The notes below the pieces were generated by a model that saw nothing but the letters and a program-made list of their open reading frames with translations, was not told the origin of the DNA and ran no database searches. DNA of 64,000 nt from Eledone cirrhosa (Eukaryota), in assembly GCA_964016885.1 (NCBI GenBank), contig OZ024747.1, positions 74,834,001-74,898,000 on the forward strand, written 5' to 3'. The translations under genes and the position numbers were made by a program. This document shows, piece after piece, positions 1-6,236 of this stretch. Every line of letters starts with the position of its first letter. Positions within the stretch are counted from its first letter, which is position 1.

Positions 1-82
1 GTTAAAAATACATTATGAAGAGAGAAGAAACATTTAGATATAATTAGTAATAAAATGTATCATACCTAAACTGTTCCTAAAT

Positions 83-170
83 TCCTCGACTACGTAGTTT
101 CGTGGCATAAACAAAAACAATATATCAAAGATATAGAGTCCTTGCGAGGTCTGCCGACTTATCAAGAGGA
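83..170 (-). ncRNA. Mirror copy of the U3-A8 hammerhead ribozyme
   Basis: Reverse complement of 519-606 within the left palindrome arm. Confidence 0.8.
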
Positions 171-518
171 TACCTCATTTTACTAGTCTCAAGAACGCGT
201 CTACACGACGTGAGAAAGAATCCCAAAAGGCGGAGGGGGAGATAGTCACGCGATATAACGGTCGAGAAACAGAGCTAAGCCTCTTATAACCACGAAGAAA
301 ATACCACGGAGGCGGAGGGGGTATTCATATCGAGGGGGTATTCATATCTGCGGCCTCGATATGAATACCCCCTCCGCCTCCGTGGTATTTTCTTCGTGGT
401 TATAAGAGGCTTAGCTCTGTTTCTCGACCGTTATATCGCGTGACTATCTCCCCCTCCGCCTTTTGGGATTCTTTCTCACGTCGTGTAGACGCGTTCTTGA
501 GACTAGTAAAATGAGGTA

Positions 519-606
519 TCCTCTTGATAAGTCGGCAGACCTCGCAAGGACTCTATATCTTTGATATATTGTTTTTGTTTATGCCACGAAACTACGTAGT
601 CGAGGA
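519..606 (+). ncRNA. Type I hammerhead ribozyme, U3-A8 variant core
   Basis: Stem I TCCTC(519-523)/GAGGA(602-606); core TTGATAA(524-530); long stem II closed by GT(C)GGCA/TGCCAC; GAAA(588-591); palindromic stem III ACTACGTAGT; GTC cleavage triplet ending at 601. Confidence 0.8.
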
Positions 607-847
607 ATTTAGGAACAGTTTAGGTATGATACATTTTATTACTAATTATATCTAAATGTTTCTTCTCTCTTCATAATGTATTTTTAACTCTGATACTGGT
701 TCAGTCTAGTTCAAACTGAATTGGTCTGTCCCAGTCATTCATTGAGCAACATCGATGAAGTTGGCACCCTTAACTCACAGTTGGGTGCGGATGCATTCAT
801 GTATATATGTGTGTGTCCGCATGTATCTGTGTGTTTCTAAATATATT

Positions 848-880
<33 letters not shown>

Positions 881-889
881 ATATATATA

Positions 890-1420
890 TCATCATCATC
901 ATCATCATCATCGTTTAACGTCCATGTTCCACGCTTGCATGGGTTTCAACGGGAGTTTTCCCACTTGAGGCAAGAGTGGTTGTCTTGCTCGCATAGGACT
1001 GTCTGGCGGGTTTTCTACAGCTGGATGCCCTTCCTAACATCAACCACATTTACAGTGTGGAACTGGGAGGTTTTTACCGTGTTGCCTACACGGCCACATT
1101 ACAGCGCGGACTGTGTGTTTTTTTGTCGTGACACCTACACGATCTCATTTGTTTCGGCCTGGATGTTGTGGCACCAACATAACTTTACATTGAAAGGGGC
1201 GGTGTGGATGGGGTGGTGGGACGGGGGTGTATTTTGTTAGAGATGCCTACTGACTGTAGTAGGTTTTACTTTGTATTTAGGTAAGGCGGGTCTTCTCTAT
1301 TACTGAGTACCGCCAAAGATCTCGGTCCAGTGACATTGTCTTGGAGAGGTGTAAGTGTGTGAGGTCGGAATTTATCAGGTCGTCCCAGGTTTTTCTGGGT
1401 CTGCCTACTCTGTGGCCCTC
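890..1420 (-). mobile_element. RTE-clade LINE 3' end with (CAT)n tail
   Basis: Highly similar to the reverse complement of 5590-6064. A partial duplicate follows at 1497-1650. Confidence 0.8.
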
Positions 1421-2959: not shown

Positions 2960-3200
2960 AATCCACCCTGTAAGGTGGTTGTCCACCCTGTAAGGTGGTT
3001 GTCCACCCTGTAAGGTGGTTGTATTGCTGACATGGCAAAAAGCTCCCAATCCGCCCTGTAAAGTGTTCGTATTGATGACATGACAAAAAGCACCCAATCC
3101 GCCCTGTAAAGTGGTCGTGTTGGTGACATGACAAAAAGCACCAAGTCCGCCCTGTAAAGTGGTTGTGTTGGTGACATGACAAAAAGCATCCGCCCAGTAA
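2960..3200. repeat. 20-bp and ~49-bp tandem repeats derived from the LINE/SINE 3' UTR motif (ctgtaaagtgg...aaaaagcacc)
   Basis: TCCACCCTGTAAGGTGGTTG x3, followed by longer related units. Confidence 0.75.
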
Positions 3201-3274
3201 ATTGGCCATATTGGTGACCCAAATATTGCTTATCTTTCAGGTATACTAATATGTAAATAGTGTCTCTATATACT

Positions 3275-3570
3275 ACTCACCAACATCACCATCATCACCA
3301 TCATCATCACCATCATCACCATCATCATCACCACCATCACCATCATCACCAACATCACCATCATCACCATCATCACCATCATCACCAACATCACCATCAT
3401 CACCATCATCACCATCATCATCACCATCATCACCATCATCACCAACATCACCATCATCACCAACATCACCATCATCACCATCATCACCAACATCACCATC
3501 ATCACCAACATCACCATCATCACCACCGCCATCACCAACATCACCATCATCACCATCACCATCATCATCA
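3275..3570. repeat. (CAT/CAC)n trinucleotide microsatellite
   Basis: Direct inspection; it produces the spurious poly-His ORF. Confidence 0.95.
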
Positions 3571-4103
3571 TGGGTTGTCATGGTATGAGACAAGTCAGAT
3601 CAGATGAGCAGGTCTTGCTCATATGGATCTTGGCTTAGTTTCTATACCTGGATGTCCATCCTAATGCCAACCACATTGCCATGTGGACAAGATGCTTTTT
3701 ATTGTGGCACCAGAAAATCTAACAGGGTGAACTACGTCATTCCTCATCATGTCTCAAAAACAACCACCTTACAGGAGGCTGGGGGCTTGTAGGAGGGACT
3801 TACAGGGGGGACTGGGCACATTTGGTCATGTTACTGGCAGGACTGTGTTAAGCTGTGGACTGGGGCTTTTTTCTCATGTCACCAATATGACGACCTTACA
3901 GGATGAAATGGTTGCATCTGTTGTGGCATCAGATCACCATACAATGTGGCAACAGCAGACTGGAAGAACAGATGTAGAGTATGTCTTGCTTCCATGCAGG
4001 TATGTATGGCTTAGGCAGGAGTGATGTGTGTGTGTGTATGCATGTATATATATATATGTATATATATATGTGTATATATGTATGTATATGTATGATATGT
4101 GTG

Positions 4104-5310: not shown

Positions 5311-6064
5311 AGAGGATATACGCAGACTAGAGAGGAACGAAGCTTGCATGCTCCGCTGGATGTGTAATAGTAATATACGTGAACAGCAGAGCATAAACGA
5401 ACTAAGGAAAAAATTAGAAATAAGAGGGATCAGATGTTGTTTACTCGAGAGAAGGCTACATTGGTATGGTCACGTGATGCGCATGAAAGTCGATAGCTGT
5501 ATAACAAAGTGCAGGGCAATAAAGATAGACGGTAGCCACGGAATAGGCAGACCTAGAAAAACCTGGGACGAGCTGATAAACTCCGACCTCACACACTTAC
5601 ACCTCTCCAAGACAATGTCACTGGACCGAGACCTTTGGCGGTACTCAGTAATAGAGAAGACCCGCCTTACCTTAATACATAGTAAAACCTACTACAGTCA
5701 GTAGGCATCTCTAACAAAATACACCCCCGTCCCACCACCCCCACCCCATCCACACCGCCCCTTTCAATGTAAAGTTATGTTGGTGCCACAACATCCAGGC
5801 CGAAACAAATGAGGTCGTGTAGGTGTCACGACAAAAAAACACACAGTCCACACTGTAATGTGGCCGTGTAGGCAACACGGTAAAAACCTCCCAGACTCAC
5901 ACTGTAAATGTGGTTGGTGTTAGGAAGGGCATCCAACTGTAGAAAACCTGCCAGACAGTCCTATGCGAGCAAGACAATCACTCTTGCCTCAAGTGGGAAA
6001 ATCCCCGTCCAAACCCATGCAAGCGTGGAACACGGACGTTAAACGTTGATCATGATGATGATGA
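5311..6064 (+). mobile_element. 5'-truncated RTE-clade LINE: ORF2 C-terminus plus 3' UTR and (ATG)n tail
   Basis: [18 protein letters not shown]...[12 protein letters not shown]...GRPRKTW matches the typical RTE ORF2 C-terminal motif (LRWxGHVxRM...RGRPxKxW). Confidence 0.9.
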
Positions 6065-6236
6065 TATATATATATGTATATATATCTATATATGTGTATA
6101 TATATACTTATACATATATATATGTATATATGTATATATATACATATATATATATATATATGTATACATATATATATGTATATATGTGTGTGTATATATA
6201 TATATTTATATATATATACTTATACATATATATGTG

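What the first reader, a model, noticed from the sequence alone, without database searches (positions are those of the whole stretch)
1..688. 688-bp palindrome carrying two mirror-image hammerhead ribozymes with a compensatory U3-A8 core
Seen: 335-bp arms around an 18-nt loop containing most of the second copy of a 17-bp direct repeat. Each arm folds into a full type I HHR: stem I TCCTC/GAGGA, core UUGAUAA, long stem II, GAAA, palindromic ACUACGUAGU stem III, and a GUC site (601 on +, 88 on -). Known: C3 pairs with G8 in the active HHR, so U3-A8 is a compensatory double change rather than decay. Penelope-like elements and retrozymes carry HHRs with palindromic stem III that can act as dimers, and Penelope pLTRs often occur inverted. 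Inference: this is a young, protein-free, self-cleaving fold-back retroelement that standard CUGANGA searches would miss.
Basis: partly seen in the sequence, partly recalled or inferred. Interest (0 to 1): 0.9.

Follow-up and report, generated by a model that had tools for sequence, protein, structure and literature searches.

The report
Two-armed U3-A8 hammerhead retrozyme insertion
The palindrome is the cut-off middle of one insertion of a 591-base non-coding repeat that carries a hammerhead-ribozyme motif, has thousands of near-identical copies in TA repeats of this genome, and often sits as two back-to-back arms ending at two different fixed points; it is likely a 'retrozyme' RNA pasted in by a Penelope-type retrotransposon enzyme, and its self-cutting is predicted, not tested.

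Summary
The palindrome and both hammerhead motifs are real, but 1-688 is not the element. The window cuts a head-to-head insertion with arms of 919 and 501 nt and three ribozymes. The unit is a 591-nt non-coding monomer with one type I hammerhead (U3-A8 core), at least 5,201 copies, in arrays of up to 11.8 units in (TA)n. Arms end at two fixed sites, about 80 and 245 nt after the cleavage site. Of 57 two-armed young loci, 54 use one of each, none uses the same site twice, and 3 are irregular or unresolved. Arms share rare variants (26 of 66; permuted mean 0.0). Ribozyme columns show 0 of 44 fixed differences to an 85%-identical subfamily. A young Neptune-type Penelope element here also has a U3-A8 core and ends at +81/+149 (12 of 12 pairs mixed). 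Template-inherited variants are A>G-rich (28 of 69, against 9 of 179), possibly from ADAR editing. Verdict: animal non-LTR retrozyme with a Penelope footprint. U3-A8 is already published; cleavage and circular RNA are untested. The scan noted two-armed retrozymes and ADAR scars before, on other DNA.

The parts
1..335 (-). Part of the left arm inside the window. The whole arm is 919 nt (1.55 monomers), begins 584 bases before position 1 (G000:C7:74833417) and has its 3' end at site A (+80) in (TA)n; it holds two ribozymes 591 nt apart, so it could release one exact monomer.
83..170 (-). Type I hammerhead motif, U3-A8 core, predicted cleavage after C at 88. A third copy lies 591 nt further upstream, outside the window.
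336..346 (.). Head-to-head junction: 11 extra bases that re-copy the end of the left arm and make the 17-bp direct repeat (315-331, 332-348); read as a slip of the polymerase before the two copies were joined (inferred).
347..847 (+). Right arm, 501 nt (0.85 monomer; monomer positions 337 to 246), 3' end at site B.
519..606 (+). Type I hammerhead motif: stem I 519-523/602-606, core 524-530 (U3, A8), stem II domain 531-587, GAAA 588-591, palindromic stem III 591-600, C17 at 601.
513..523 (+). Competing short hairpin that would sequester the 5' strand of stem I in the circular monomer (predicted off-state).
660..681 (+). Site A: fixed 3' end point at monomer position about 80 (pyrimidine tract, then a TA-like word); passed through by this arm, used as the end of the left arm.
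682..846 (+). [quoted passage not shown]
830..846 (+). Site B: fixed 3' end point at monomer position about 245; end of the right arm.
847..890 (.). (TA)n target microsatellite; the left flank outside the window is also (TA)n.

Best explanation
This is one insertion of a 591-nt non-coding hammerhead-motif repeat with two back-to-back arms in a TA microsatellite, likely a non-LTR retrozyme whose RNA would self-cleave and circularise and was likely copied into both cut strands of the target by a Penelope-type enzyme starting at two fixed sites. Steps: (1) arrays of more than one unit are transcribed in the ribozyme sense (inferred from strand-specific structure and variant spectrum); (2) two ribozymes, probably pairing through the palindromic stem III, cut out a 591-nt monomer that is ligated to a circle (inferred from known retrozymes; untested); (3) a Neptune-type RT/GIY-YIG protein, probably a dimer, nicks both strands of (TA)n, and the two 3' ends prime on the same RNA at +80 and +245, each helped by a short TA-like match (the fixed ends and the one-of-each pairing are shown; the enzyme and dimer are inferred); (4) each cDNA runs round the template for a variable length, up to 11.8 units (lengths shown; rolling circle inferred); (5) the cDNA 3' ends are joined at short microhomology, by slip-and-copy or by snap-back, giving the palindrome; if one cDNA is lost a single-arm copy results (junction features shown; order of events inferred).
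For: Unit and copies: 591-nt period, longest stop-free stretch 86 codons, GC 41.6%; 5,201 exact matches to a 30-nt ribozyme word, control 0; median divergence 0.6% over 104 arms. Fixed ends: 10 of 10 two-armed loci mixed; 19 of 21 in a position-ordered set plus 4 of 4 added loci; 21 of 22 in a further set; none with the same site twice; chance for the 33 is 2e-11 under independent choice. Independent run X2 shows loose ends going into TA at both sites. Older subfamily, 85% alike: 13 of 15 distinct two-armed loci regular, the other 2 with the short arm ending at 69 or 56 and the long arm at 246-247. One template: arms share 26 of 66 rare variants, permutation mean 0.0, maximum 0.011; rare variants are in all units (17) or one unit (42), seldom between (7). 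RNA-level constraint: 0 of 44 ribozyme columns among 84 fixed differences, P 0.001; 13 pairs broken against 25 expected, P 0.0002; circular fold z -6.9 and -5.7 in ribozyme sense, -0.4 and -0.5 antisense. Candidate enzyme: RT plus GIY-YIG family, 150 of 150 scored copies 98-100% identical in the RT, U3-A8 hammerhead, ends at +81 and about +149 in (TA)n, 12 of 12 inverted pairs mixed. Literature: two internal RT start sites, both strands cut and extended, predicted dimer (PMC11167929); tail at one end and inverted 5'-truncated copies (PMC8557442, PMC3846280).
Against: No cleavage or RNA data. The active fold is not the minimum-energy fold; 8 of 9 Xenopus retrozyme dimers did not cleave in vitro (10.64898/2026.07.22.740005) and ribozyme cleavage was not needed for insertion by the anole element (PMC11167929). 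No alignable similarity between the monomer and the candidate Neptune element beyond simple repeats, and other Penelope families exist (10,595 GIY-YIG candidates), so the partner is not identified. Shared variants cannot tell a circle from a long transcript of a uniform array. Only 2 of 165 consensus pairs show a change on both sides, none in the ribozyme. 3 of 57 two-armed loci are irregular or unresolved (L123, L145, L244). In the anole element the start sites have no match to the target, unlike here. Loci came mostly from contig C1 and from exact-match searches, which favour young copies.
Confidence: 0.8

Rival explanations
1. Same element and enzyme, but no circle: the template is a long linear read-through transcript of a uniform tandem array, and the ribozyme cuts rarely or only sets transcript ends.
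For: Active fold is disfavoured by 1.8-8 kcal/mol; uncut RNA was the main insertion substrate for the anole element (PMC11167929); uniform source arrays would also give shared variants.
Against: Arrays of up to 11.8 units with private variants in every unit of both arms (14 of 14 units, 8 of 8 units) need an equally long, uniform source each time; the whole 591-nt unit, not only its 3' end, is under structural constraint.
Confidence: 0.25
2. One cDNA only: a single priming event, then the cDNA folds back and copies itself (self-priming, as proposed for Adineta Penelope elements), which makes the palindrome.
For: 7 of 36 junctions have both arms starting within 15 nt of each other, 1.9 expected, P 0.002 (one of the 7 is a duplicated locus); this window is such a case; PMC3846280 reads inverted junction palindromes as self-priming.
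Against: 29 of 36 junctions join unrelated monomer positions; self-copying gives no reason for the second arm to stop always at the other fixed site, and here it passes site A without stopping. Snap-back fits better as one way of joining two cDNAs.
Confidence: 0.1
3. One reading: a discrete 688-bp fold-back element whose two mirror-image ribozymes act together.
For: Perfect 335-bp complementarity inside the window.
Against: The arms go on beyond the window and are unequal; junctions differ at every locus; 26 of 47 loci have no second arm; the two ribozymes lie on opposite strands, and a transcript through both arms would form about 490 bp of duplex that hides them (inference).
Confidence: 0.02
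4. Assembly or chimeric-read artefact.
For: The junction of this locus was not checked in raw reads.
Against: Arms are unequal, differ at one base and have different flanks; 54 other-or-same loci follow one biological rule; both end sites appear in an independent run.
Confidence: 0.02
5. Satellite DNA amplified by DNA-level recombination, with a dead or chance ribozyme motif.
For: Head-to-tail repeats; Rfam finds no hammerhead.
Against: Dispersed short arrays with fixed 3' ends, ragged 5' ends and a (TA)n target; strand-specific fold and strand-specific A>G excess; ribozyme columns invariant between subfamilies.
Confidence: 0.03

Closest known systems
Animal non-LTR retrozymes (Cervera and de la Pena 2020, PMC7229834: passages and sections 13 and 17 read; Li, Clavereau and Pollet 2026, 10.64898/2026.07.22.740005: parts 1-3 of 5 read)
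   Same: Non-coding tandem repeat, one type I hammerhead per unit, GC under 45%, thousands of copies, stable predicted circle, Penelope elements in the same genome.
   Different: 591-nt unit (150-450 in Cervera, 51-972 in Li); U3-A8 core with a 57-nt stem II domain; the parts read describe no inverted arms, fixed end sites or microsatellite target ('inverted' and 'microsatellite' have 0 occurrences in PMC7229834). Cleavage and circles were shown there, not here.
Penelope-like elements with inverted pLTR and one-sided tail (Craig 2021, PMC8557442, passages; Arkhipova 2013, PMC3846280, passages)
   Same: Partial tandems, inverted 5'-truncated copy head to head, a tail at one end only, (TA)n preference.
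   Different: No ORF; tail of 165 nt instead of 30-40; both arms may be multi-unit arrays; the tail is described there as optional or 'often' one-sided, here it is 54 of 54 regular pairs.
Poseidon element PAc of Anolis (Frangieh 2024, PMC11167929, parts 1-2 of 4 read)
   Same: Two internal RT start sites downstream of the hammerhead define the tail; both strands cut and extended; AT-rich target; predicted dimer.
   Different: PAc sites are close together, have no match to the target and showed no strand preference in vitro; here both sites end in TA-like words and are used one per strand.
U3-A8 hammerheads (Perreault 2011, PMC3088659, passages; Cervera and de la Pena 2014, PMC4209133, parts 1-2 of 4 read)
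   Same: Natural C3-G8 to U3-A8 covariation; stated to be active in vitro; about 1,300 Schistosoma motifs, and pairs on opposite strands 100-700 bp apart.
   Different: Those are minimal motifs, mostly single and heterogeneous; this one has a full palindromic stem III and sits in a very young tandem family.

Membership tests
Type I hammerhead ribozyme | Core CUGANGA/GAAA/UH, or a Watson-Crick 3-8 covariant | tested here: met
   UUGAUAA, GAAA, GUC; U3-A8 accepted as natural variant in PMC3088659
Type I hammerhead ribozyme | Three helices, open helix I, G10.1-C11.1 | tested here: met
   Constrained fold -21.5 kcal/mol against -23.3 minimum; 0 of 44 columns differ between subfamilies
Type I hammerhead ribozyme | Match to an Rfam hammerhead model | tested here: not met
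   No match at gathering score or E<=10; not a defining feature in the papers read
Type I hammerhead ribozyme | Covariation in the ribozyme stems | tested here: inconclusive
   Stems I, III and base of II are nearly invariant in 13 aligned monomers; no change on both sides
Type I hammerhead ribozyme | Self-cleavage | not testable with these tools
   needs in vitro transcription
Animal non-LTR retrozyme | Tandem repeat with at least two consecutive units bearing a complete type I hammerhead | tested here: met
   Left arm here has two, 591 nt apart; 57 of 104 arms exceed one unit
Animal non-LTR retrozyme | Non-coding, GC under 45-50%, no LTR | tested here: met
   Longest stop-free stretch 86 codons, GC 41.6%; no terminal repeats other than the unit itself; PBS and PPT not searched
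Animal non-LTR retrozyme | Stable predicted structure of the monomer circle | tested here: met
   z -6.9 (40 shuffles); -5.7 for the old subfamily, about -0.4 antisense (25 shuffles each)
Animal non-LTR retrozyme | Expressed as linear and circular monomer RNA | not testable with these tools
   no RNA holder listed
Autonomous Penelope-like element | ORF with RT and GIY-YIG | tested here: not met
   No ORF in the monomer; so a passenger, not a member
Penelope-type insertion footprint | Inverted 5'-truncated copy, one-sided tail, (TA)n target | tested here: met
   tail 165 nt rather than 30-40
Derivative of a specific Penelope pLTR | Sequence similarity to the pLTR of an autonomous family | tested here: not met
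   No alignable match in 50 GIY-YIG loci or in one candidate Neptune unit; only 50 loci of 10,595 candidates were examined

The most novel reading that the evidence does not exclude
One Penelope enzyme dimer grips a single 591-nt ribozyme circle at two fixed sites and copies it by rolling circle into both strands of a cut (TA)n at once, which explains the inverted repeats and one-sided tail of Penelope elements; and the circles are edited by ADAR before copying, so RNA editing is a main source of heritable change in this family.
Probability: 0.35. Interest if true: 0.75.

Novelty: new variant of a known kind. Interest (0 to 1): 0.5.

Why it matters
How Penelope elements make their tandem and inverted insertions and their one-sided tail is named as open in PMC8557442, and the link between retrozymes and Penelope enzymes rests so far on co-occurrence and pLTR similarity. 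This family offers thousands of young insertions with a strict rule (one arm from +80, one from +245, both from one template) and a short defined RNA, so the two-site, two-strand model can be tested in vitro with a co-resident enzyme. It also shows that a U3-A8 core supports a very successful family that Rfam and CUGANGA descriptors miss, so retrozyme censuses undercount. If the A>G excess is ADAR editing, the family records RNA editing in the germ line.

Tried and rejected
Rfam: no hammerhead match (two weak unrelated hits ignored). Folding 505-625 alone gave no signal. Search for C3-G8 members of the family: none in the first 100 of 4,298 rows; the rest were not listed. Search for an autonomous element carrying this monomer: none in 50 GIY-YIG loci; L093 holds a copy only as a neighbour in (TA)n. 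Covariation: only 2 of 165 pairs change on both sides. Expression: no RNA holder listed; not used as evidence. Horizontal transfer: 20 runs under 17 organism codes hold the unit, but of 8 runs laid only X2 has it at very high depth; X1, X5, X6, X10, X12 and X15 hold near-identical pieces at depth about 2-105, and about 1 in 100 of a Hi-C run of organism F gave only simple-repeat reads. I read this as trace carry-over or diet, which I could not test; it is not evidence of transfer. ADAR context: 5' G depleted and U/A favoured in the first set but not significant in the pooled rare set (P 0.13 and 0.08), and edited A's are no more paired than others (P 0.44). Bacterial promoter scan and tRNA scan were uninformative. 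One search stopped on an error after printing the ribozyme variants; the alignment was redone. Rows dropped: hits under 93% identity were left out of the variant counts; the duplicated locus L056 was counted once for ends and; L162/L169 and L170/L172 were each counted once; L158 (arm cut by the locus edge) was not counted; L236 and L237 overlapped earlier loci and were left out.

Full report
Observation. The inverted repeat is real: 1-335 and 354-688 are fully complementary with 18 nt between them, and a 17-bp direct repeat lies at 315-331 and 332-348. Each arm holds a complete type I hammerhead motif at the stated places, with UUGAUAA in place of CUGANGA. The 20-nt 3' motif occurs twice in the window and never in 100 shuffles. 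Rfam has no hammerhead match at gathering score or at E up to 10. The fragment 505-625 folds no better than shuffles (z 0.23); the active fold is 1.8 kcal/mol above the minimum in the ribozyme fragment and 8 kcal/mol above it in the circular monomer, where a short hairpin hides the 5' strand of stem I. The palindromic stem III gives no stable hairpin alone but a -12.9 kcal/mol duplex with a second copy, as expected for a dimeric hammerhead (PMC4209133).

The real extent. The window lies at G000:C7:74834001. The DNA before it shows that the left arm starts 584 bases upstream, is 919 nt long and holds two ribozymes 591 nt apart; the right arm is 347-847. Both ends abut (TA)n. The 688-bp size is therefore an effect of the window edge. 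The unit is a 591-nt monomer, GC 41.6%, with no stop-free stretch over 86 codons. A 30-nt ribozyme word has 5,201 exact matches in the genome against 0 for the control; 104 arms have a median divergence of 0.6%; arrays reach 11.8 units. The host is probably an octopod; this rests on my recall of such repeat content and on earlier scan notes, not on a call.

Two fixed ends, one per arm. Counting from the predicted cleavage site, 3' ends fall at about +80 or +245, each a TA-like word that runs into the target; 5' ends are ragged. Two-armed loci are always head to head. All 10 have one arm at each site. Of 47 loci taken in order of position, 26 have one arm (16 at +80, 10 at +245) and 21 have two; 19 of the 21 are mixed and 2 have a short arm that ends at neither site. 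Four added loci are mixed, and 21 of 22 in a further set, one unresolved. In total 54 of 57 are mixed and none uses one site twice; for the first 33 the chance under independent choice is 2e-11. An older subfamily, 85% alike, gives 13 regular pairs of 15 distinct two-armed loci. Run X2 shows loose ends into TA at both sites. Junctions show an overlap of at least one base in 28 of 36 cases and inserted bases in 4; 7 of 36 have both arms starting within 15 nt, 1.9 expected. The 17-bp repeat here is one such junction, with 11 re-copied bases.

One template. The two arms of a locus share 26 of 66 rare variants, against a mean of 0.0 and a maximum of 0.011 in 300 permutations; neighbouring units share 97 of 209. 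At positions covered three times or more, rare variants are in all units (17) or in one (42), seldom between (7). This fits repeated copying of one monomer, but a transcript of a uniform array would look the same.

Selection on the RNA. Between the young and old subfamilies there are 84 fixed differences in 598 columns, none in the 44 ribozyme columns (P 0.001); the three longest invariant runs are the approach to site B and the two ribozyme halves. Substitutions break 13 predicted pairs against 25 expected (P 0.0002). The circular fold has z -6.9 and -5.7 in the ribozyme sense and -0.4 and -0.5 antisense. Against this, only 2 of 165 consensus pairs change on both sides, none in the ribozyme, and no C3-G8 member was seen in the first 100 of 4,298 rows (99 U3-A8, one U3-G8). 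U3-A8 is thus conserved, but its compensatory nature rests on the literature: natural U3-A8 cores, active in vitro (PMC3088659, passages), and about 1,300 such motifs in Schistosoma (PMC4209133).

A>G excess. On the ribozyme strand, A>G makes up 22 of 51 rare variants present in all units of a locus but 3 of 85 present in one unit (P 1e-8). In 38 new loci the figures are 8 of 22 and 6 of 94 (P 7e-4); pooled, 28 of 69 and 9 of 179; distinct sites A>G 21, T>C 7, G>A 11, C>T 7. Some loci carry clusters (6 in L136, 4 in L134). One-unit variants lean to T>C, so polymerase error in the last round does not explain it. ADAR editing of the template is the likeliest cause (my estimate 0.6). Against: the neighbour preference is not significant when pooled (P 0.13, 0.08), edited A's are no more paired than others, G>A is also raised in the new set (6 against 1 C>T), and clustered sites are not independent (18 loci with A>G, 8 with T>C, of 37).

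Candidate enzyme. The genome has 10,595 GIY-YIG candidates. One family has RT and GIY-YIG domains with a cysteine linker that I read as Neptune-type from the description in PMC8557442 (no tree was built). All 150 scored copies are 98-100% identical over 211 RT residues, and 36 have the same 775-codon frame. Its own hammerhead has a U3-A8 core and palindromic stem III, its ends fall at +81 and about +149 in (TA)n, and 12 of 12 inverted pairs are mixed. The first end lies at the same distance from the cleavage site as in the retrozyme, and the second ends in a similar word. There is no alignable similarity, so this is a candidate only.

Mechanism and comparison. The best reading is a non-LTR retrozyme (PMC7229834; 10.64898/2026.07.22.740005) mobilised by a Penelope enzyme that cuts both strands and primes at two internal sites of one RNA, as shown in vitro for the anole element (PMC11167929), leaving the inverted copy and one-sided tail known for Penelope elements (PMC8557442, PMC3846280). 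Shown here: unit, copy number, ends, pairing rule, shared variants, constraint. Inferred: cleavage, circle, dimer, partner, editing. It meets the sequence tests for a retrozyme and fails the test for an autonomous Penelope element. I did not find the strict two-site rule for retrozymes, a cephalopod retrozyme or ADAR editing of retrozymes in print in searches; the library lacks most subscription papers and I read no supplements. Earlier notes of this scan report two-armed retrozymes of other sizes, two of them in this genome, and ADAR scars in Penelope copies; I saw them after forming each reading, and no note matched this sequence.

Verdict. New variant of a known kind; interest 0.5.

Noticed in passing
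L214:1708-5171 and L215:1853-5316 (+ strand): The young Neptune-type family has two overlapping frames, 409 and 775 codons, with the second in the -1 frame and a T TTT TTA heptamer in the overlap; 36 of 150 scored copies have the 775-codon frame. Penelope elements are described as single-ORF, so a programmed -1 frameshift is possible. No strong hairpin follows the heptamer; one search showed no listing on this.
   Followed up: partly
L076, L078, L081, L091, L094, L096, L105, L108: A second Penelope family has a hammerhead-like motif with UUGAAAA and GCAA in place of GAAA, the same in all copies seen; L090 has UUGAUAA with GAAA.
   Followed up: no
L098:493-545: Another, unrelated U3-A8 hammerhead motif with a long palindromic stem III in a short repeat ending in (TA)n; canonical CUGANGA motifs occur at L077, L100, L104 and L105.
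   Followed up: no
L056-L061 (G000:C1:19618708-19625258): One two-armed insertion is duplicated in tandem with a period of 2,554 bases and the same junction.
   Followed up: no
L149:1142-1436 and L050:775-1071: Old copies only 72-94% alike to the young unit form small head-to-head pairs with ends near +81 and +235-237, so the family and its rule are older than the present burst.
   Followed up: partly
runs X1, X5, X6, X10, X12, X15: Near-identical monomer at low depth in runs under six other organism codes; likely carry-over or diet, not tested.
   Followed up: partly
window 890-1416, 1444-1650, 5311-6218: Abundant LINE/SINE-like 3' ends with a (CAT)n tail flank the insertion; a 94.6% alike copy lies inverted upstream of the window.
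   Followed up: no
window 2962-3191 and 3218-3627: Tandem repeats with periods of 20, 48 and 9 bases.
   Followed up: no
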